Positions 9,475 through 47,524 of a DNA stretch of 64,000 nucleotides are shown here, in pieces. The notes under the pieces are model-generated. The model was not told the origin of the DNA and did not search any database. It saw nothing but the letters and a program-made list of their open reading frames with translations. The position numbers were made by a program, and so were the translations under genes. The stretch is from Oscillospiraceae bacterium (GTDB lineage: Bacteria; Bacillota; Clostridia; Oscillospirales; WRJC01): contig WRMA01000001.1 of NCBI GenBank assembly GCA_009777355.1, positions 28,505 to 92,504 on the forward strand. The letters run 5' to 3'. Within the stretch, counting starts at the first letter, position 1. Each line of letters opens with the position of its first letter.

Positions 9475-10425
9475 TTATGATTTAACCCGGTTCTGCTTTT
9501 CTGTAACCGACAGGATTGTCACGACTGCCGGAACCGCGGCGAGCGTTATAATAGTCTCCGGCAGCATATACTGGAGATTATATATTATAGAATAAACCCA
9601 CGCGCCGACCGTGTGAACGTATTCGTTCCAGCTCTGCGTCTTGGTTATTTCATACCAGACGGCAGCCCCCACGATGACGTGAGCCGCGTATCTTAAAACG
9701 CAGACCAGAAGAGTCGCCGCCGACGCAATCACTATTTTTTTACCCTTGCTTTCCGCTTTTTTAACAAAACTCTTAAAAAATCCCGCCGTTCCTATAAGAG
9801 TGTACGCGAGTACATAATCGATAAGACTGCTGACGATTATGAGATTACGGCTTATGCCCGCGATTCCCGCGACGCTTCCGAGTCCGTATAGAAGCAAATA
9901 CGCCGCCGAATAAACGAACGCGGTAGCGTATCCCCATAAAACGCCCCGTCTCAACCCGATTATAATAAGGGGAACCATGCTGAACAGAGTGACAGAACCC
10001 CCGAGAGGAGCTCTCCAAATTTTTGTGTAAAGAGATAAAACCACTGCGACCGAAACCATTACCGAACATTCTATTATAATTCTCAGATTCTCCTGAGAAT
10101 TACGCTTAACGGCATTTGATTTGATAAACATTAAAATCAAAACCGAACCCGCGATAAACATCGCAAGCGATATAATCATTACCGCAATCGTTGAGATTTC
10201 AACCGCCGAAAGAGGATGCCTGAATCTGATTCTCTGTAAATTCTCCCTTATAATCTCTTCGTTCGCCTCCCAAAATCCACCGGCTAAAAAATCCTCTCCC
10301 AGAAATCTGATTTCCGAACCCCAGTTCATAATTACAATCGCGCATACCGTTCCGATAATTCCGGAAATTAACATTATTAACCCAACCGCCAAATCTTTTT
10401 TGTTTTTCATAAAAAAACGCGCCAT
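9475..10425 (-). CDS. thiT: Thiamine transporter ThiT-like membrane protein (ECF S-component) with ~110-aa N-terminal 2-TM extension
   Basis: The C-terminal ~200 aa looks ThiT/YuaJ-like by recall. A TPP riboswitch lies directly upstream on the same strand. Confidence 0.7.
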   Translation of the reverse strand: MARFFMKNKKDLAVGLIMLISGIIGTVCAIVIMNWGSEIRFLGEDFLAGGFWEANEEIIRENLQRIRFRHPLSAVEISTIAVMIISLAMFIAGSVLILMFIKSNAVKRNSQENLRIIIECSVMVSVAVVLSLYTKIWRAPLGGSVTLFSMVPLIIIGLRRGVLWGYATAFVYSAAYLLLYGLGSVAGIAGISRNLIIVSSLIDYVLAYTLIGTAGFFKSFVKKAESKGKKIVIASAATLLVCVLRYAAHVIVGAAVWYEITKTQSWNEYVHTVGAWVYSIIYNLQYMLPETIITLAAVPAVVTILSVTEKQNRVKS

Positions 10426-10562
10426 CCTTTCTTAAATTTTTAAATTTAAATAAATATATAAAAACCGCGCAAATAATCCCGATTCAATCGCGCGGTTCGC
10501 ATACGTTAAGAACAGCGGAGCCGGCTTTTTTTTTCAAAAAAAGCGGCTGTCCAAAACATAAT

Positions 10563-10650
10563 CTTCCCTACGTTGGCATTACCCATATCAGGTTATAAGG
10601 GACAGCGGATTTTTACTTAAATCCGCATCTCAGCCCTGCGGCGCCCCCGA
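10563..10650 (-). promoter_or_regulatory. TPP (THI-box) riboswitch
   Basis: The minus strand reads GGGGCGCCGCAGGGCUGAGAUGCGG...CCGCUGUCCCUUAUAACCUGAUAUGGGUAAUGCCAACGUAGGGAAG. It contains the CUGAGA and ACCUGAU..GGNUAAUGCC..CGUAGGGAA cores. Confidence 0.9.
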
Positions 10651-10696
10651 CTATTTAATTGCGGTTATTATTTTTTATGAGTTTCAGCAAAGTTTC

Positions 10697-10840
10697 TTAT
10701 TTCTTCTCGAAAACCGTTTTGATACCGTCGCCTTCAAGCGTCAGTTTATTCCCGTCGAGAGTTCCTTTTACGGTTTCTCCGCCGCTTGTTATCTCTATAG
10801 ACTTACCGTTTATTTCAAAATTTTTTATATTTATACCACT
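10697..10840 (-). pseudogene. 47-codon C-terminal gene remnant (..NFEINGKSIEITSGGETVKGTLDGNKLTLEGDGIKTVFEKK*) lacking any ATG/GTG/TTG start
   Basis: My own translation. The open frame is bounded upstream by TAA at 10841-10843 and has no canonical start. Confidence 0.45.
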
Positions 10841-10876: not shown

Positions 10877-10916
10877 TATATTTTTAAGCGAACGCCATAA
10901 ATTTTTTTATTTTTGC

Positions 10917-10945
10917 TTGACAATAATAAACAATCGTGATATAAT
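10917..10945 (+). promoter_or_regulatory. Consensus promoter TTGACA-N17-TATAAT for candidate antisense RNA (copy L)
   Basis: -35 at 10917-10922 and -10 at 10940-10945. Confidence 0.6.
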
Positions 10946-10951
10946 TAAATA

Positions 10952-11086
10952 TGCAAATGAAAGAAAGAGCGGTGTAACGCTCTCTCAATCAGCCGCGCCG
11001 GCCGCTTAAGGCGGCAGGCTTTGCGTAGTTTAAGTTTTAATTAAACGCCGCTAGTCCTTGCTGGGAGGGCGGCGTTTACTTTTTAT
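10952..11086 (+). ncRNA. Candidate ~135-nt antisense sRNA (copy L), convergent with the small ORF
   Basis: Bounded by the promoter above and by hairpin 11043-11077 followed by ACTTTTTAT. An internal hairpin at 10966-10983 is preserved by a compensatory change relative to copy R. Confidence 0.45.
11043..11077. terminator. Shared (bidirectional) hairpin AAACGCCGC...GCGGCGTTT at the 3' end of the small ORF
   Basis: 9-bp stem with a T-run on the plus-strand side. It overlaps the last codons of the ORF. Confidence 0.55.
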
Positions 11087-11167
11087 CACATTTATTATAT
11101 ATTTTACCGGTTCAATAAAATCCGGAAGAAAATATATTACTAAAAATAATATTTCGCAAACATACAT
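11051..11167 (-). CDS. Small ORF, 38 aa MYVCEILFLVIYFLPDFIEPVKYIINVIKSKRRPPSKD (hydrophobic N-terminus, basic tail); candidate type I toxin-like peptide
   Basis: RBS GAAAGGAG lies 7 nt before the ATG. Compared with copy R it shows 2 synonymous and 1 conservative change. Confidence 0.5.
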   Translation of the reverse strand: MYVCEILFLVIYFLPDFIEPVKYIINVIKSKRRPPSKD

Positions 11168-11310
11168 GAGCTTCACTCCTTTCAGTTGGATTTTTGCGAA
11201 GAAATAATATTCTTCAACCCTCCTTTCGGAACGCAAAGCCATGCCGCCCTTAACGCTGCGACGCGACATATATATTTTCTCATACTTCGACAGTTTTGTC
11301 AAGCGCTTTT

Positions 11311-12891
11311 TTATTTTTTCTGAAACGCAATCACAAAAGGCGCTTCGGGTATGTTTATAAGACGGTGATACAGACAGTCAAAAATTTTCCTGTCGAGATT
11401 TTCCGCAAATTCAAAAATTTTTTCGCCCTCTCTCGTTCCTTCCGAGTGTCCGGGATAAACGCAGACTACTATAACTCCTCCGGCTTTTAATATTTCAAGC
11501 GCGCCTTTTAAGCATATGAGCGTCGACTCTGTCAGGGTCGTTATCGATTTGTCTCCCCCGGGAAGATAACCGAGATTGAAAACCGCTCCGTCAAGCTCTG
11601 TTTCTTCCGGCATATATTTTCTGAAATTTCCGTGAGAATCGCGTATCAAATATATATTTTCATCAAAACAATTCTCGCTTTCAAGCCTTTCTTTTGTCGC
11701 TTCGAGAGCTTTTTGCTGTATGTCAAACGCATAAATTTCAGCTTTCGGACATTTCTTTTTTATATAAAGCGTATCGTGACCGTTACCCATGGTAAAATCG
11801 GCGTAAACTCCGCCGCCCGCCTCAAGGCTTCGGTTAATCGCGACGTCGAGCAGACGCTTCGCAAAGCTTAAAATATTCGTCAGTGATTTTTGTTCCGCCC
11901 CCCTTGCAGAAAGAGGCTGATGCGTTTCTCCTGATTTTTCTAATTTTTTCCCCTGATACGTTCCGCGTTTTGCCAACTCTTTGTCTATATCGTTTATAAC
12001 GGAAAATTTTTTGCTTACCCATTCCGGGAGGGTTTTATCGGATTTATCCGATATTTCGGGGTCTCCCGTAAGGCGCATTATAACTATTTCCGGCGGCAGT
12101 TCTTCAAGCTGCGATACGACAATATCTATATATTCTTCTTTTGACGGTAAATTTATTTTTCCCGAATTATATAAATCGTAAATTTCAGTTCCCGGCTCTA
12201 TATAAAGCGCATGGATTTTTACGCCGAGCGGCAAAGGGTCGAGACTTGCGATATATTTCGCGGTTTCAAGCATCATTTCATAATTTTCACCCGGCAGACC
12301 GTTTATAATATGAATAATTACCGGTATTTTATACTCCGCCAAAATTTTATACGCCTCTTCGAAAACTTCGAGCTTATATCCCCGGTTTATAATACCGGCC
12401 GTTTTATCGTGAAAAGTCTGCAATCCGAGTTCAACCGCCGTATCGAGCCCGGTTCTCACGCCTAATTCGCTTAAATATCCCGCGGTTTCGCCGGTTATAC
12501 AGTCCGGACGGGTCGCCGTATATATCCCGGCAAGATTATCTGTATCCAGAACGCTTTCGTAAACTCTTTTCAGTTCGTCAAGCGAAGCGAAAGTATTTGA
12601 CCCCGCCTGAAAATACGCGATATATTTAGTGTCTCTCCATTTTTTTGAGAGCGCTTCTTTTTTTATATCAAACTGTTTTACTATTTCCCCGGGAGACAGC
12701 AAACCCCCGTTTATATCCCCCGTCCGCGTTTGTATACCCCGGCAGAAAATACAGCCCCTTCCGGTCCGTTTTATATGAGGACAGGAAAAACCGGCGTCAA
12801 GCGCGATTTTCGCCGTCTTAACGCCGTATCTGTTTGCTAAATAATAATCGTAAGCGTGATAACGCTTGTTGTTCGGATATATAAAATTAAT
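11311..12891 (-). CDS. Fusion of a TIGR01212/YtqA-type radical SAM protein with a YtqB-type (PF06962-like) SAM methyltransferase; probable ATT start
   Basis: The C-terminal half has GNGHDT...FNLGYLPGGDKSITT. The Cys-cluster region (FSCPHIKRTGRGCIFC) lies in-frame upstream of the first canonical start at 12702. GGAGGA sits 7 nt before ATT at 12891. Confidence 0.8.
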   Translation of the reverse strand: MNFIYPNNKRYHAYDYYLANRYGVKTAKIALDAGFSCPHIKRTGRGCIFCRGIQTRTGDINGGLLSPGEIVKQFDIKKEALSKKWRDTKYIAYFQAGSNTFASLDELKRVYESVLDTDNLAGIYTATRPDCITGETAGYLSELGVRTGLDTAVELGLQTFHDKTAGIINRGYKLEVFEEAYKILAEYKIPVIIHIINGLPGENYEMMLETAKYIASLDPLPLGVKIHALYIEPGTEIYDLYNSGKINLPSKEEYIDIVVSQLEELPPEIVIMRLTGDPEISDKSDKTLPEWVSKKFSVINDIDKELAKRGTYQGKKLEKSGETHQPLSARGAEQKSLTNILSFAKRLLDVAINRSLEAGGGVYADFTMGNGHDTLYIKKKCPKAEIYAFDIQQKALEATKERLESENCFDENIYLIRDSHGNFRKYMPEETELDGAVFNLGYLPGGDKSITTLTESTLICLKGALEILKAGGVIVVCVYPGHSEGTREGEKIFEFAENLDRKIFDCLYHRLINIPEAPFVIAFQKK

Positions 12892-13745: not shown

Positions 13746-13775
13746 ATTATAACATAATATTATTAAATTTGTCAA
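13746..13775 (-). promoter_or_regulatory. Promoter TTGACA-N18-TATAAT for the zinc-ribbon/radical-SAM gene pair
   Basis: Hexamers read on the minus strand, ~65 nt upstream of the start at 13680. Confidence 0.55.
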
Positions 13776-13928
13776 GCAGTTATAAAAAAACTCTTGACAA
13801 AAATGTCGAAATGCGCGAAAATATATATGTCGCGTCGCAGCGTTAAGGGCGGCATGGCTTTGCGTTCCGAAAGGAGGGTTGAAGAAAACTATTTCTTCGC
13901 AAAAATCCAACTGAAAGGAGTGAAGCTC

Positions 13929-14036
13929 ATGTATGTTTGCGAAATATTATTTTTAGTAATATATTTCCTGCCGGATTTTATTGAACCGGTAAAATATATA
14001 ATAAATCTGATAAAAAGTAAACGCCGCCCCCAATAG
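13929..14036 (+). CDS. Small ORF, 35 aa MYVCEILFLVIYFLPDFIEPVKYIINLIKSKRRPQ; candidate type I toxin-like peptide
   Basis: RBS GAAAGGAG lies 7 nt upstream. A TTGACA box at 13794-13799 precedes a ~100-nt leader. Confidence 0.5.
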   Translation: MYVCEILFLVIYFLPDFIEPVKYIINLIKSKRRPQ

Positions 14037-14164
14037 CAAAGGTTTGCGGCGTTTATAAATTATAATCTACGCAAAGCCTGCCGCCTTAAGCGGCCGGCGC
14101 GGCTGATTGAGAGAGTGTTAGCAGCACTCTTTCTTTCATTTCTGTCTGTCGGACAGACAGGCAC
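14010..14164 (-). ncRNA. Candidate ~155-nt antisense sRNA (copy R)
   Basis: Runs from the consensus promoter at 14171-14199 to the shared hairpin. It has a 5' hairpin CCTGTCTGTCCGACAGACAG and the hairpin AGAGTG/CACTCT. Confidence 0.45.
14019..14054. terminator. Shared hairpin AAACGCCGC...GCGGCGTTT overlapping the ORF stop
   Basis: 9-bp stem. The T-run (ACTTTTTAT) is on the minus-strand side, so it fits termination of the antisense RNA. A second hairpin at 14112-14130 followed by TTCTTTCATTTCT fits the plus-strand mRNA. Confidence 0.55.
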
Positions 14165-14170
14165 ACACTA

Positions 14171-14199
14171 ATTATATCACGATTGTTTACTAATGTCAA
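14171..14199 (-). promoter_or_regulatory. Consensus promoter TTGACA-N17-TATAAT for the antisense RNA (copy R)
   Basis: -35 at 14194-14199 and -10 at 14171-14176 on the minus strand. Confidence 0.6.
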
Positions 14200-14231
14200 G
14201 CGAATATAAAAAAATAGATATCTGCAAAATA

Positions 14232-17662: not shown

Positions 17663-17706
17663 GAAAAATACTTCTCCGTTTTTTTGAAATTTAAAATAAA
17701 AAAATC

Positions 17707-17735
17707 TTGACATTAATAAATTAATATGATATAAT
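17707..17735 (+). promoter_or_regulatory. Consensus promoter TTGACA-N17-TATAAT for the candidate antisense RNA of the third module
   Basis: -35 at 17707-17712 and -10 at 17730-17735. Confidence 0.6.
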
Positions 17736-17741
17736 GGCAGC

Positions 17742-17865
17742 AAGGGAAACTGCGCGCTGATAACGCGCAAATCTCCCCTGAACCGCAAAGCGGCTTGGTA
17801 TTAGATTATTATTAAAATAAATTAACCGTAATCCAATTACCGGACTGGGGCGGTTAATTTACGTC
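17742..17865 (+). ncRNA. Candidate ~120-nt antisense sRNA (module 3)
   Basis: 5' hairpin GGGAAACTGCGCG..CGCGCAAATCTCCC, small hairpin CCGCAAAGCGG, an AU-rich tract, and terminator hairpin 17822-17857. Confidence 0.45.
17822..17857. terminator. Shared hairpin TTAACCG...CGGTTAA overlapping the stop codon of the 27-aa ORF
   Basis: 7-bp stem. On the minus-strand side it is followed by TTTATTTTAATAATAAT. Confidence 0.55.
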
Positions 17866-17937
17866 TATAGAAAATAATATCATAAGTATTAATACAATAA
17901 TAATTATTATTATCCATTTCAGTATCTTATTTTTCAT
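17854..17937 (-). CDS. Small ORF, 27 aa MKNKILKWIIIIIIVLILMILFSIDVN (single TM); candidate type I toxin-like peptide
   Basis: My own translation. SD GGGGG lies 8 nt before the ATG and is paired in the hairpin CCUCC-GAAA-GGGGG. Confidence 0.5.
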   Translation of the reverse strand: MKNKILKWIIIIIIVLILMILFSIDVN

Positions 17938-17992
17938 TGATTCACCCCCTTTCGGAGGAAAACCAAGCCGCCTCACAGTTTCTGCCGACTTT

Positions 17993-45979: not shown

Positions 45980-47524
45980 TTAATCCAGATTCTGTATTTT
46001 ATCGATTAACAAATCTATCTGCCTGTTTACCCTGTTTTCGTTTCTTTCGTAGAACGTGGCCAAAGCCCTGTCGTTGTTGTTCGCGCGTCTGTAAAATTCT
46101 ATGCCGAAATCCGCGAAATTATATACATCGCCGATGTCGAGAACCCTGTTCGCCAGTATAATATCCAGCATCTCGCTCGACTCGTCGTCCCTTATTCCTT
46201 TTGTCCTGAGCGACACGTCGTAATACGCGGGCGTAAGCGTGTATTTCGATTCGGCCGCGAGAGCTTCCATGATTACGGTCGTCCTCTCTATTATTTCTGA
46301 TTTTCCCGCCGAATTAATGGGGATTGCGAGAGCGCACGAAGTATGGACGTTTACAGTCGAATAATACATAGTATCGTTGGATTCGTATATTTTCGGGATG
46401 GGCAGTATGCCGAAGTCCGCGTCCATTCCCCTGAGACGGGGAACCCAGCCGAGTCTGAGCCAGCCGAAGGCCGCCCTGTTGTCGCTGAATATATTTTCGA
46501 AAGCTAAATCGGACCAGTCGGAGAACAAAGCCTTCTGAACGTTTCCCGTCACGTCCTCGTCGTAAAGCAAATCCATTACTTTGTCCATCGCGGTATAAGT
46601 CTGCTGATTATTAAAAGATAAGAACGGCAGGTCGTTTTCGTCCTTGCTGACCAGTCTCTGACCGGCGGAGTGAAGATAGGATATCATAGCGTCTCCCCAT
46701 ATCAGATAGCCGAACTGCGAATCTGAAGGGTGCATCAATCCGTTATTGTTAAATCTCGCCGTCTCTTTCGCCATTTCGTAAAGCTTGTCTACCGTCCATT
46801 TACCCTCTCTTACAAGAGAATAAGGGTCGCCCAGACCGTGGTCCTGCAAAATCTTCTTGTTAAAAACGGTTATCGTCGTAGCGTTGTTGTCTGAAAGCAA
46901 TATATCCGACAGTAATATAAACAATCTGTTGTCTATACTCATTTCGGCTATAGCCTGCTGATTATACCAGGGTTTATCCAAATCGAGATGCTCGATTTCG
47001 GAACTGAACAGATTCATGAAAAATCCGTCCTGCATAAATCCCGCGCTTTCTATGACCCGGGGGCTGAATAAATCATATTCGTTCGTTCCCGCCCTGACTT
47101 CGTTTCTTAGAGCGTTTCTGAAATCGTCGTCGTATCTGTGTACCTGATTGAGCGTAATATTATATTTCGATTCGACTACGGCGTTTCTTCTGAAAACCGC
47201 GTCGCCTATGACGTTGCCTTCGTCAAGCTCCGGGTTCAAATCGATATTTTCCCATTCGTGCGAACCCTGAACCCCGAAAGTCAGGATATTAAACGTATGA
47301 CCTCCGAAATCCAGAGCGGGAAGATTCGGCAGTATTTTTTCTTCGCCCTGATTTTCAGCTTCTCCGCCGCCCTGAATATCCGAGTCCGCGTCGGGCAGGT
47401 CTCCCGCGCCTCCGGTATTTGCTTCAGGCTCTCCTCCGCACGCCGCGAGCAGCCCGAGTAATATAACCAGTATAACCGAACCCGATATAATTTTAAGCGC
47501 GTTTGCAAGTTTTGTTTCTTTCAT
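45980..47524 (-). CDS. Extracellular solute-binding lipoprotein (ABC substrate-binding, orphan)
   Basis: Lipobox LLAACGG. 514 aa. No adjacent permease genes. Confidence 0.8.
   Translation of the reverse strand: MKETKLANALKIISGSVILVILLGLLAACGGEPEANTGGAGDLPDADSDIQGGGEAENQGEEKILPNLPALDFGGHTFNILTFGVQGSHEWENIDLNPELDEGNVIGDAVFRRNAVVESKYNITLNQVHRYDDDFRNALRNEVRAGTNEYDLFSPRVIESAGFMQDGFFMNLFSSEIEHLDLDKPWYNQQAIAEMSIDNRLFILLSDILLSDNNATTITVFNKKILQDHGLGDPYSLVREGKWTVDKLYEMAKETARFNNNGLMHPSDSQFGYLIWGDAMISYLHSAGQRLVSKDENDLPFLSFNNQQTYTAMDKVMDLLYDEDVTGNVQKALFSDWSDLAFENIFSDNRAAFGWLRLGWVPRLRGMDADFGILPIPKIYESNDTMYYSTVNVHTSCALAIPINSAGKSEIIERTTVIMEALAAESKYTLTPAYYDVSLRTKGIRDDESSEMLDIILANRVLDIGDVYNFADFGIEFYRRANNNDRALATFYERNENRVNRQIDLLIDKIQNLD

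What the first reader, a model, noticed from the sequence alone, without database searches (positions are those of the whole stretch)
13791..14205. Compact small-ORF plus convergent antisense-RNA locus with type I toxin-antitoxin-like architecture (copy R; mirror copy L at 10905-11306)
All parts below were read directly from the sequence.

- **Plus strand:** a TTGACA box at 13794, a ~100-nt leader, RBS GAAAGGAG, and a 35-codon ORF (13929-14036). The peptide is MYVCEILFLVIYFLPDFIEPVKYIINLIKSKRRPQ, with a hydrophobic N-terminus and a basic tail.
- **Minus strand:** a perfect TTGACA-N17-TATAAT promoter (14199-14171) fires toward the ORF.
- **Shared 3' region:** both transcripts would run into the hairpin at 14019-14054, which overlaps the ORF stop. 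A second hairpin with a T-run (14112-14143) fits the plus-strand mRNA. If so, the two RNAs overlap at their 3' ends by roughly 35-125 nt.

Comparing the two copies supports function on both strands:
- In the first 33 codons there are only 3 differences. Two are synonymous (ttc ctg vs ttt ctt) and one is conservative (L/V).
- The antisense-RNA hairpin AGAGTG/CACTCT in copy R becomes AGAGCG/CGCTCT in copy L, a compensatory pair.

Convergent toxin mRNA and sRNA with 3' overlap is the layout of known type I systems such as txpA/RatA, bsrG/SR4 and par/Fst. I don't recognise the peptide as a member of any named family.
Basis: partly seen in the sequence, partly recalled or inferred. Interest (0 to 1): 0.8.

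Follow-up and report, generated by a model that had tools for sequence, protein, structure and literature searches.

The report
Duplicated BsrG-like type I toxin-antitoxin

Summary
The window holds two copies, not three.

I recovered 11 DNA units and 2 protein-only copies, from the same MAG and from four metagenome assemblies, in three subfamilies and often in tandem.
- The ORF is intact in every unit. Variation by codon position is 3>1>2, pN/pS is 0.56 against 0.80 and 1.38 in the other frames, and one insertion is in frame.
- Every antisense gene with its promoter region in hand has a TTGACA-17-TATAAT or TATAGT promoter and a terminator that overlaps the ORF end.

The mRNA terminator follows this helix directly. 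The antisense RNA is therefore complementary to about 130 nt of the mRNA, including the 3' strand of that helix.

This is the published bsrG/SR4 design. Rfam's BsrG model is the best match to both window copies but falls below threshold (24.8 and 21.7 bits; cut-off 55). The peptide matches no Pfam, NCBIfam, PHROG or PADLOC family.

Verdict: a probable type I toxin-antitoxin system and a new member of a known kind. Toxicity and transcription are untested.

The parts
13794..13822 (+). Copy R: promoter of the peptide mRNA (TTGACA-17-GAAAAT). It is weaker than the antisense promoter. The predicted transcription start is about 13829.
   Evidence: The equivalent weak promoter (TTGATT-17-TACACT) sits at the same place in subfamily B.
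13829..14143 (+). Copy R: predicted peptide (toxin) mRNA of about 315 nt, running from the predicted start to the T-run after hairpin H1.
   Evidence: Fold of 13826-14150 has z = -8.06. Consensus fold of 8 units. The ends are inferred from promoter and terminator, not measured.
13831..13865 (+). Copy R: segment X, the 5' strand of long-range helix P1. Its 3' half can instead pair with SD2, the AUG and the first codons.
   Evidence: P1. (alternative pairing).
13870..13920 (+). Copy R: rest of the leader. It holds an SD-like AAAGGAGGG (13870-13878), a small hairpin, UCC (13906-13908) that can pair locally with the SD, and the real SD GAAAGGAG (13913-13920).
   Evidence: The Rfam BsrG alignment places UCC...GGA in the model's SD hairpin.
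13929..14036 (+). Copy R: 35-codon ORF plus stop. The product is one helix with a narrow charged stripe and a basic tail, KSKRRPQ.
14018..14055 (.). Copy R: hairpin T1 over the ORF end. It is the terminator of the antisense RNA, whose U-run is the complement of 14006-14017. The codons for K-S-K-R-R-P are the complement of that U-run and stem.
   Evidence: (helix 6: 100% paired, 2 pairs changed on both sides).
14069..14101 (+). Copy R: 3' strand of helix P1. It contains the local hairpin H2, GCCGC-CTTAA-GCGGC (14080-14094).
14109..14143 (+). Copy R: hairpin H1 plus T-run, the terminator of the peptide mRNA. Its upper stem is also the 5' hairpin of the antisense RNA.
   Evidence: The G.U pairs in the lower stem (columns 325-328/346-349) are valid only on the plus strand.
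14008..14164 (-). Copy R: predicted antisense (antitoxin) RNA of about 155 nt, including an R-specific 5' hairpin (14144-14164). It is complementary to about 130 nt of the mRNA.
   Evidence: z = -3.9.. Covariance-model hit at 14007-14140. The ends are inferred.
14171..14199 (-). Copy R: antisense-RNA promoter, a perfect TTGACA-17-TATAAT with TG, next to an A-rich upstream tract.
   Evidence: Found, with a 17-nt spacer, in all nine units scanned that include this region and visible in the second L016 unit.
11274..11302 (-). Copy L: promoter of the peptide mRNA (TTGACA-17-GAAAAT with TG).
10953..11267 (-). Copy L: predicted peptide mRNA. X is 11231-11265, the 3' strand of P1 is 10994-11026, T1 is 11042-11078, and terminator H1 is 10963-10986 plus its T-run.
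11051..11167 (-). Copy L: 38-codon ORF plus stop, MYVCEILFLVIYFLPDFIEPVKYIINVIKSKRRPPSKD.
10917..10945 (+). Copy L: antisense-RNA promoter (perfect TTGACA-17-TATAAT with TG).
10952..11092 (+). Copy L: predicted antisense RNA of about 140 nt.
   Evidence: Covariance-model hit at 10956-11089.

Best explanation
Each repeat is an autonomous type I toxin-antitoxin module built like bsrG/SR4 of Bacillus subtilis.

A weak promoter makes an mRNA of about 315 nt for a 35-38-residue peptide. The peptide is one long hydrophobic helix with a narrow charged stripe and a basic tail, and is presumed to act on the membrane. A consensus-strength convergent promoter makes an antisense RNA of about 140-155 nt. 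That RNA is complementary to the last codons of the ORF and to the whole 3' UTR.

The 5' segment X of the mRNA has two mutually exclusive partners.
1. While the mRNA is being made, X can pair with the SD, the AUG and the first codons, which keeps the nascent RNA silent.
2. Once the 3' UTR exists, X pairs with it instead, in the much stronger 30-bp helix P1. This frees the start site.
3. The antisense RNA binds the 3' UTR, including the 3' strand of P1. That would push X back onto the start site and create a long duplex for RNase III, so translation stops and the mRNA decays.

Shown here: the sequence elements, the coding signature, and the conservation and covariation of P1 and the hairpins. 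Inferred: the transcript ends, the switch itself, the role of RNase III, and toxicity.
For: Family. 11 DNA units and 2 protein-only copies fall into three subfamilies. There are at least four copies in this genome, and tandem arrays in L018, L019 and L020.

Coding.
- The ORF is intact in all units (35-45 aa).
- Frame 0 has no stops in 9 units, against 58 and 7 in the other frames.
- pN/pS is 0.56, against 0.80 and 1.38.
- Mean pairwise difference by codon position is 0.249 / 0.136 / 0.372.
- L020 carries a 21-nt in-frame insertion.
- The upstream extension changes frame between copies, so the leader is not coding.

Peptide. AlphaFold predicts one helix over residues 2-32, pLDDT about 89. Polar residues 5, 12, 16, 19 and 26 lie within a 100-degree arc, and the tail is basic.

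Antisense gene. The promoter is TTGACA-17-TATAAT or TATAGT in every unit whose promoter region is in hand. The hairpins and terminator are conserved, with 5 pairs changed on both sides.

mRNA structure.
- RNAalifold recovers P1 in all 8 full units. 95.6% of cells are paired, against 37-47% when partners are slid.
- 12 pairs change on both sides, a count reached by 0 of 500 shuffles.
- G.U pairs in the lower H1 stem are valid only on the plus strand. H1 is therefore the mRNA terminator, and the mRNA must read through T1.

Switch. The X:start-site pairing is the minimum-energy fold of all eight 5' fragments and is 85.7% paired, against 31-47% slid. Its energy is -16 to -25 kcal/mol, against -47 to -57 for P1.

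Precedent. In bsrG mRNA, nt 1-35 pair with nt 232-262 and the terminator follows directly. [quoted passage not shown] SR4 binding frees the 5' strand and extends the SD helix from 4 to 8 bp, and it also promotes decay (PMC3834814; my fold of the bsrG RNA).

Sequence-level links to bsrG. Rfam BsrG (RF01412) is the best match of 4227 families to both window copies, on the ORF strand and over the full model: 24.8 bits (E 5e-4) and 21.7 bits (E 4e-3). My antisense-RNA model hits the SR4 position in an SPbeta-like phage (17.6 bits).
Against: - There is no expression or toxicity data.
- The Rfam BsrG scores are far below the 55-bit cut-off, and a subfamily B unit gives no BsrG match even at E 10.
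- The X:start-site pairing shows no covariation beyond shuffles (434 of 500). It rests on conserved pairing potential only.
- The 17.6-bit hit on SR4 is weaker than a 22.3-bit hit on an unrelated window locus, so it shows shared architecture at most.
- pN/pS of 0.56 is only moderate constraint. Part of the ORF conservation is RNA-level: the KSKRRP codons are the antisense terminator, and codons 3-5 pair with X.
- The L020 copy has ATA in place of ATG.
- All units come from one MAG and four metagenome assemblies, which is about three independent lineages. The covariation counts are therefore not independent events.
- The peptide has more charged residues than classical type I toxins such as BsrG.
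Confidence: 0.78

Rival explanations
1. The locus encodes a small membrane protein controlled by a cis-antisense RNA, but it is not a toxin-antitoxin system. The peptide would have a physiological role, for example modulating a transporter or responding to stress, and the antisense RNA would simply tune its level.
For: All the sequence evidence fits any antisense-regulated small-protein gene equally well. The peptide is amphipathic with many charged residues. The window copies are chromosomal, among housekeeping genes.
Against: The strong-antisense/weak-sense promoter asymmetry, the elaborate devices that silence translation, the multicopy and tandem organisation and the match to the bsrG/SR4 design are typical of toxin genes. 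They are not typical of ordinary small-protein genes.
Confidence: 0.13
2. The locus is a purely RNA element, a sense/antisense pair of structured small RNAs. The ORF would be an untranslated by-product of RNA-level conservation.
For: RNA structure constrains much of the unit, including parts of the ORF: helices 4-6 lie inside it, and the KSKRRP codons are the antisense terminator. The leader is more conserved than the ORF. One copy lacks ATG.
Against: Frame-specific signals argue for translation: no stops in frame 0 against 58 and 7 in the others, the lowest pN/pS in frame 0, variation by codon position in the order 3>1>2, and an in-frame 21-nt insertion. A strong SD sits 8 nt before the start codon in every unit.
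Confidence: 0.05
3. The two copies are the terminal inverted repeats of a mobile or invertible 2.5-kb cassette (radical-SAM/methylase plus DUF975 genes). The promoter-like and ORF-like features would be incidental.
For: The copies are inverted and flank two genes. In L016 two direct copies flank another two-gene cassette. L001 shows a different left junction for copy R in another sample.
Against: There is no transposase or recombinase between or beside the copies. Elsewhere the same unit occurs as head-to-tail tandem arrays with nothing or one small ORF between units. Each unit carries a complete, selected gene pair. Homologous recombination between copies may occur, but only as a side effect.
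Confidence: 0.03
4. The peptides are RiPP precursors matured by the adjacent radical-SAM enzyme.
For: Two small ORFs flank a radical-SAM gene.
Against: The enzyme combines Radical_SAM, Radical_SAM_C and an rRNA-methylase domain. That is a housekeeping-type architecture and not a RiPP maturase type. The other ten units have no radical-SAM neighbour. The peptide has only one cysteine and no leader/core organisation.
Confidence: 0.01

Closest known systems
bsrG/SR4 (Bacillus subtilis SPbeta prophage; Rfam RF01412 BsrG)
   Same: - A 38-aa peptide, an mRNA of about 300 nt, and a convergent antisense RNA that overlaps the 3' end.
- A long helix pairs the mRNA 5' end (nt 1-35) with the 3' UTR, and the terminator follows directly.
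- The antitoxin is complementary to the hairpin at the ORF end, the 3' half of that helix and the terminator.
- The SD sits in a short local helix.
- The basic C-terminus is encoded by the complement of the antitoxin terminator's U-run.
- Sources: PMC3834814.
- Rfam BsrG is the top sub-threshold match.
- The peptide N-termini resemble each other: MTVYESLMIMINF against MTVWDLLFLMIYF.
   Different: - The Rfam score is less than half the cut-off, and subfamily B is not detected.
- Peptide similarity stops after about 24 residues. BsrG has a fully hydrophobic core, whereas this peptide has a D/K or E/K stripe, an invariant Pro15 and a KSKRRP tail.
- About 60 nt at the 5' end of SR4 (183 nt) lies outside the overlap. 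Here almost the whole antisense RNA overlaps the mRNA.
- The host is a Clostridia-class Oscillospiraceae chromosome, not a Bacillus prophage.
txpA/RatA, bsrE/SR5, yonT/SR6 (Bacillus) and SprG/SprF (Staphylococcus)
   Same: In these Gram-positive type I families the antisense RNA lies on the 3' side and overlaps the ORF end (T1TAdb paper PMC8594479). In the Bacillus systems decay of the toxin mRNA depends on RNase III (PMC3531473, listed).
   Different: There is no sequence match to the peptide and none of their Rfam families matches. I did not compare their mRNA folds directly.
Clostridioides difficile CD2517.1-RCd8, CD2907.1-RCd9 and CD0956.2-RCd10
   Same: These are Clostridia-class modules with convergent, overlapping toxin and antitoxin genes and long complementarity. 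The toxins have a hydrophobic N-terminal part and a positively charged C-terminal tail (PMC6563280).
   Different: Those toxins are 50-53 aa (30-56 aa for their homologues in phages), with lysine-rich tails, and are linked to prophages and CRISPR arrays. No homology was detected: the exhaustive HMMER search found only this family.
par (Fst/RNAII) of Enterococcus pAD1
   Same: Convergent transcription with a shared bidirectional terminator, and a small helical peptide.
   Different: In par the interaction uses repeats outside the overlap that are complementary between the two RNAs (PMC8594479). Here the internal repeat is inverted, so it pairs within the mRNA, and the antisense RNA carries a copy of the leader, not its complement.
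hok/Sok and aapA1/IsoA1
   Same: A long-distance 5'-3' interaction in the toxin mRNA is used to control access to the start site (PMC8594479).
   Different: In those systems the long-distance interaction hides the SD and 3' processing activates the mRNA, and the antisense RNA acts at the 5' part. Here the interaction is predicted to free the start site, and the antisense RNA targets the 3' strand of the helix.

Membership tests
Type I toxin-antitoxin systems (class) | A small ORF (under about 60 aa) with its own SD, encoding a hydrophobic or helical peptide. | tested here: met
   The ORF is 35-45 aa and GAAAGGAG lies 8 nt before the start codon in all units. One helix over residues 2-32. The best 19-residue hydrophobicity window is 1.3-2.55.
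Type I toxin-antitoxin systems (class) | The ORF is a real coding sequence. | tested here: met
   Frame-specific absence of stops, pN/pS of 0.56 against 0.80 and 1.38, codon-position variation in the order 3>1>2, and an in-frame indel.
Type I toxin-antitoxin systems (class) | A cis-encoded antisense RNA gene with its own promoter and terminator, complementary to the toxin mRNA. | tested here: met
   A consensus promoter in every unit whose promoter region is in hand, and conserved hairpins plus a terminator with U-run. This is sequence-level evidence only. Transcription was not observed.
Type I toxin-antitoxin systems (class) | The peptide is toxic when over-produced, and the RNA neutralises it. 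| not testable with these tools
   This needs expression experiments.
BsrG/SR4 family | A match to Rfam RF01412 (BsrG RNA) at or above the gathering score of 55 bits. | tested here: not met
   24.8 bits for R and 21.7 bits for L, each the top hit over the full model. A subfamily B unit gives nothing at E 10.
BsrG/SR4 family | The mRNA 5' end pairs with the 3' UTR in a long helix (P1), and the terminator follows immediately. | tested here: met
   A 30-bp helix in all 8 units with covariation, and the terminator 7 nt after it in copy R. Compare PMC3834814.
BsrG/SR4 family | [quoted passage not shown] | tested here: met
   This follows from the positions of the antisense promoter and terminator. 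Overlap is about 14012-14143 in R.
BsrG/SR4 family | The peptide is homologous to BsrG. | tested here: inconclusive
   BLASTP of BsrG against P0005 gives 8 of 24 identical residues, E 7e-4 for a single comparison. The BsrG sequence was verified against SPbeta. There is no profile-level support.
BsrG/SR4 family | Release of the 5' strand on antitoxin binding increases occlusion of the SD. | tested here: inconclusive
   The X:SD/AUG pairing is the minimum-energy fold of all eight 5' fragments and is 85.7% paired, but it shows no covariation beyond shuffles.
Fst/RNAII (par) family | Repeats at the 5' ends of both RNAs that are complementary between the RNAs, outside the overlap. | tested here: not met
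   The repeat 13831-13865 / 14069-14101 is inverted, so it pairs within the mRNA.
Fst/Ldr, TisB, Hok and other Pfam/NCBIfam toxin families | The peptide matches the family profile. | tested here: not met
   No relevant hit at E up to 10 in Pfam or NCBIfam. Nothing in PADLOC or PHROGs.

The most novel reading that the evidence does not exclude
The family could be a deep-branching relative of BsrG/SR4. That would make the '5' end pairs with 3' UTR, antitoxin displaces it' design older than the split between Bacilli and Clostridia.

In addition, pairs of units may work as brackets around small gene cassettes. In the window, an inverted pair flanks the radical-SAM/methylase and DUF975 genes. In L016, a direct pair flanks an HExxH gene and a Zn-ribbon gene. 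Such brackets could stabilise the enclosed genes by addiction, or move or invert them by recombination between the 400-bp repeats.
Probability: 0.1. Interest if true: 0.6.

Novelty: new member of a known kind. Interest (0 to 1): 0.42.

Why it matters
Type I toxin-antitoxin systems are badly under-annotated because both genes are tiny. Within Clostridia, the review read here (PMC6563280) deals mainly with C. difficile, its phages and a few plasmids.

This locus adds a family from uncultured Oscillospiraceae. The annotators called its peptide only as spurious 69-77-aa ORFs. It comes with enough natural variants (three subfamilies) to define the mRNA and antisense structures by covariation.

It also suggests that the bsrG/SR4 regulatory design is not restricted to Bacillus prophages. 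The family gives a ready-made set of natural variants for testing the predicted three-way switch (start site, 5' segment, 3' UTR).

Practically, the repeats break metagenome assemblies: four contigs (L001, L002, L019, L020) end inside a unit. The units should therefore be annotated as genes, not as unexplained repeats.

Tried and rejected
- **Third copy in the window.** blastn, tblastn and the covariance model find only two. The 31-nt match at 46101 is chance.
- **GTDB species genomes, two scans.** Peptide patterns gave 195 pattern matches, none confirmed. The leader pattern gave 5 single matches, all in unrelated, non-Firmicute lineages (Mycobacterium, Chloroflexota, Alphaproteobacteria, Lindowbacteria), and I treated them as chance without blasting them. 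The family is therefore absent from the species representatives at that sensitivity.
- **JGI metagenome scan with a gapped leader pattern.** 14 loci were returned. Only L002 (promoter and leader at a contig end) is a real relative.
- **Look-ups that returned nothing.** Encoding-contig look-ups for P0001, P0002, P0005 and the DUF975 protein.
- **Longer 80/83-aa TTG ORF.** Rejected because the upstream part changes frame between copies.
- **Rfam at gathering threshold.** Nothing at the locus. The only hits in the window are a tRNA and a TPP riboswitch.
- **Riboswitch or leader-peptide reading of the 100-nt leader.** Rejected. There is no Rfam match, the 11-codon upstream reading frame is not conserved (it is fused or absent in other copies), and the leader is accounted for by helix P1.
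- **RiPP and transposon readings.** See the rival explanations.
- **Covariation test of the X:start-site helix.** It gave no signal beyond shuffles, so that step of the mechanism stays an inference.
- **Reciprocal covariance-model hit on SR4.** Too weak to count as homology, because an unrelated locus scores higher.
- **Literature.** A literature search listed no paper among its top ten (of 2,035 holding at least two of the four terms) that links type I toxin-antitoxin systems with Oscillospiraceae or Ruminococcaceae.
Full report
**1. Observation**

- On the plus strand there is a TTGACA-17-GAAAAT promoter (13794-13822), a leader of about 100 nt, the SD GAAAGGAG (13913-13920), and a 35-codon ORF (13929-14036).
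- A GC-rich hairpin (14018-14055) lies across the stop codon. A second hairpin with a T-run lies at 14109-14143.
- On the minus strand there is a perfect TTGACA-17-TATAAT promoter with TG (14199-14171).

The mirror copy at 10901-11314 is 87% identical over 436 nt (E 1e-152). From promoter to ORF it is 95% identical.

The two copies flank a radical-SAM/rRNA-methylase fusion gene and a DUF975/zinc-ribbon membrane-protein gene. The window holds only two copies. Copy R has a 21-nt palindromic insertion (14144-14164) that copy L lacks.

**2. Relatives**

The window comes from an NCBI MAG labelled 'Oscillospiraceae bacterium' (locus tags FWH10_). Its annotators called the ORFs with spurious N-terminal extensions of 69-72 aa.

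Two further copies exist in the same genome:
- P0005 (FWH10_00080), on the same contig but outside the window;
- P0002 (FWH10_03470), on another contig.

An exhaustive HMMER search of 1.84 billion representative proteins found only this family. A profile search then gave five more members from metagenome contigs. I recovered their DNA, and a pattern scan of JGI metagenomes added a promoter-leader fragment (L002).

In all there are 11 DNA units in three subfamilies:
- **A:** R, L, a partial unit V in L001, and the L002 fragment.
- **B:** two units in L016, one in L017, two in L018 and two in L019.
- **C:** L020.

L018, L019 and L020 carry head-to-tail arrays. L016 has two direct units around two small genes. 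Two scans of GTDB species representatives found no real relative, so the family looks rare and lineage-restricted.

**3. The ORF is coding**

- The ORF is open in every unit (35-45 aa).
- Over the first 33 codons of nine units, frame 0 has no stop codons, against 58 and 7 in the other frames.
- Summed pN/pS is 0.56, against 0.80 and 1.38.
- Mean pairwise difference by codon position is 0.249 / 0.136 / 0.372.
- Pairwise dN/dS ranges from 0.08 to 0.79.
- The subfamily C unit carries a 21-nt in-frame insertion. It also has ATA where the others have ATG.
- The annotated N-terminal extensions are in different frames in different copies, so the leader is not coding.

AlphaFold2 on the 10-sequence alignment predicts one helix over residues 2-32, with pLDDT about 89. 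The polar residues at positions 5, 12, 16, 19 and 26 fall within a 100-degree arc of the helical wheel. They are D/K/D/K/D in subfamily B. The tail is basic, KSKRRP. This narrow stripe of alternating charges recalls TisB; that comparison is from memory and was not tested.

No Pfam, NCBIfam, PADLOC or PHROG family matches.

**4. The antisense gene**

Every unit whose promoter region is in hand has TTGACA, a 17-nt spacer and TATAAT or TATAGT on the opposite strand (L019b is cut off before it, and the second L016 unit shows it). The sense promoter is weaker: GAAAAT or TACACT at -10 and TTGATT at -35 in subfamily B.

The predicted antisense RNA is 136-158 nt long. It folds into a 5' hairpin, a GCCGC/GCGGC hairpin, an extra hairpin in subfamily B, and a terminator followed by a U-run. 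Five pairs change on both sides.

The terminator stem and U-run are the complement of the codons for K-S-K-R-R-P. Conservation of the basic tail is therefore at least partly an RNA constraint. The same relation holds in bsrG, where the QKKK codons are the complement of the U-tract that follows the hairpin at the predicted SR4 3' end.

**5.

Segment X at the mRNA 5' end (13831-13865) is an imperfect inverted repeat of 14069-14101 in the 3' UTR. Folding 13826-14150 pairs the two segments (-123.5 kcal/mol, z = -8.06).

RNAalifold on eight complete units recovers the same 30-bp helix, P1, in all of them.
- Over the whole consensus structure, 95.6% of cells are standard pairs, against 37-47% when partners are slid.
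- 12 pairs change on both sides, a count reached by 0 of 500 shuffles.
- P1 alone is 95.4% paired, with 3 pairs changed on both sides.

Hairpin H1 follows P1 directly and is followed by the T-run. Its lower stem contains G.U pairs that would be A.C mismatches on the other strand. H1 is therefore the terminator of the sense RNA, so the sense RNA must read through the first hairpin.

The sense RNA is thus about 315 nt long. The antisense RNA is complementary to about 130 nt of it: the last codons, the T1 hairpin, the 3' strand of P1 and the terminator.

One caveat applies to these counts. The units represent about three independent lineages, so the numbers overstate independent events.

**6. Mechanism**

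When the 3' UTR is left out, the minimum-energy fold of every unit pairs the 3' half of X with the SD, the spacer and the AUG. It pairs the 5' half of X with codons 3-6.
- This pairing is 85.7% conserved, against 31-47% for slid partners. It shows no covariation beyond shuffles, so it is a conserved potential and not a proven helix.
- Duplex energies are -16 to -25 kcal/mol for X with the start site, and -47 to -57 kcal/mol for X with the 3' UTR.

My reading has three steps:
1. The nascent RNA is silent because X covers the start site.
2. The finished RNA forms P1, which exposes the start site.
3. The antisense RNA binds the 3' strand of P1, returns X to the start site, and creates a long duplex for RNase III.

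The elements and P1 are shown here. The switch, the role of RNase III and the toxicity are inferred.

**7. Comparison with known systems**

The design matches bsrG/SR4 as determined experimentally (PMC3834814).
- In bsrG mRNA (296 nt), nt 1-35 pair with nt 232-262 in helix P1.
- The terminator follows after one nucleotide.
- The SD sits in a 4-bp helix.
- SR4 binding makes nt 1-33 single-stranded, extends the SD helix to 8 bp and promotes decay.

I confirmed the BsrG peptide sequence against SPbeta and folded the annotated bsrG RNA.

Several sequence-level links to bsrG exist, and all are weak.
- Rfam's BsrG model is the best of 4227 families on both window copies, on the ORF strand and over the full model. 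The scores are 24.8 and 21.7 bits against a cut-off of 55.
- In that alignment the SD region, the small hairpin in the 3' strand of P1 and the terminator loop line up (GUGUUAGCAGCAC against GUGcUAcCAgCAC).
- A subfamily B unit gives no BsrG match.
- BsrG and P0005 share MTV..L..MI.F at the N-terminus (E 7e-4 for one comparison).
- My antisense model hits the SR4 position (17.6 bits), but an unrelated window locus scores higher.

I therefore file the locus as working like bsrG/SR4, with family membership unproven.

It differs from par/Fst. There, the repeats are complementary between the two RNAs (PMC8594479). It also differs from hok and aapA1, where the long-distance interaction hides the SD.

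The placement of the antisense RNA on the 3' side, overlapping the ORF, is the rule for Gram-positive families. The C. difficile modules share the convergent layout and the charged tail but not the sequence.

**8. Rivals**

- **An antisense-regulated small protein that is not toxic** cannot be excluded without experiments (0.13).
- **A purely RNA element** is unlikely given the frame-specific signals (0.05).
- **Terminal repeats of a mobile or invertible cassette** is unlikely. There is no recombinase, and the same unit forms tandem arrays elsewhere (0.03).
- **RiPP precursors for the neighbouring radical-SAM enzyme** is rejected, because the enzyme is of a housekeeping type and the other units have no such neighbour (0.01).

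**9. Verdict**

It is sharpened to a bsrG/SR4-type module with a conserved 5'-3' helix. This is a new family of a known kind, of moderate interest. Its value is good comparative definition of both RNAs, a testable switch, and an extension of this design to uncultured Clostridia.

Noticed in passing
window 17700-17980: A second, unrelated locus with a type I toxin-antitoxin-like layout. A plus-strand consensus promoter (TTGACA-17-TATAAT, 17708-17736) drives a small structured RNA with a terminator-like hairpin at 17826-17860. It converges on a minus-strand 27-codon ORF, MKNKILKWIIIIIIVLILMILFSIDVN (17934 down to 17854), which has the SD AAAGGGGGTGA. It surfaced as a 22.3-bit hit of the antisense-RNA model.
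   Followed up: partly
window 10547-10658 (-) and 9475-10425 (-): A TPP riboswitch (66.7 bits) lies upstream of a Thia_YuaJ-type thiamine transporter gene. A consensus promoter at 10876-10848 (-) sits about 190 nt upstream of the riboswitch.
   Followed up: partly
window 10684-10830 (-): By eye, an open 3' gene fragment (...KNFEINGKSIEITSGGETVKGTLDGNKLTLEGDGIKTVFEKK*) with no start codon, between that promoter and the riboswitch and directly outside copy L. It may be a remnant of a rearrangement at the repeat.
   Followed up: no
window 12700-12890 (-): The conserved N-terminus of the radical-SAM/methylase fusion (CPHIKRTGRGCIFC motif) is in frame with the rest of the gene. It has no ATG, GTG or TTG between the upstream stop and TTG 12702. 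The gene may use a non-canonical start, or the assembly may have an error.
   Followed up: partly
window 13746-13790 (-) and L001:230-300: The promoter of the DUF975 gene has a -35 and A-tract almost identical to the outer end of a unit's antisense promoter (TGTCAAGCnnnTATAAAAAAA; repeat D5). In contig L001, from another sample, the same position holds a further, divergent unit V in tandem with R. That contig begins with an Illumina adapter, so the junction may be chimeric.
   Followed up: partly
window 14144-14164: A 21-nt palindromic insertion (CTGTCTGTCGGACAGACAG plus flank) is present only in copy R. It adds a hairpin to the 5' end of R's antisense RNA.
   Followed up: partly
L016:1380-1400, L018:470-540, L019:400-420: The motif GAGAACCGTCCCCCTGTTTT recurs just downstream of subfamily B units and appears several times in a row in L018. 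Its function is unknown.
   Followed up: no
L016:1419-2013: Two direct subfamily B units flank a 112-aa protein with an HExxH motif (weak, sub-threshold SprT-like and Tox-MPTase4 hits) and an overlapping 89-aa zinc-ribbon protein. These may be a toxin/immunity-like pair.
   Followed up: partly
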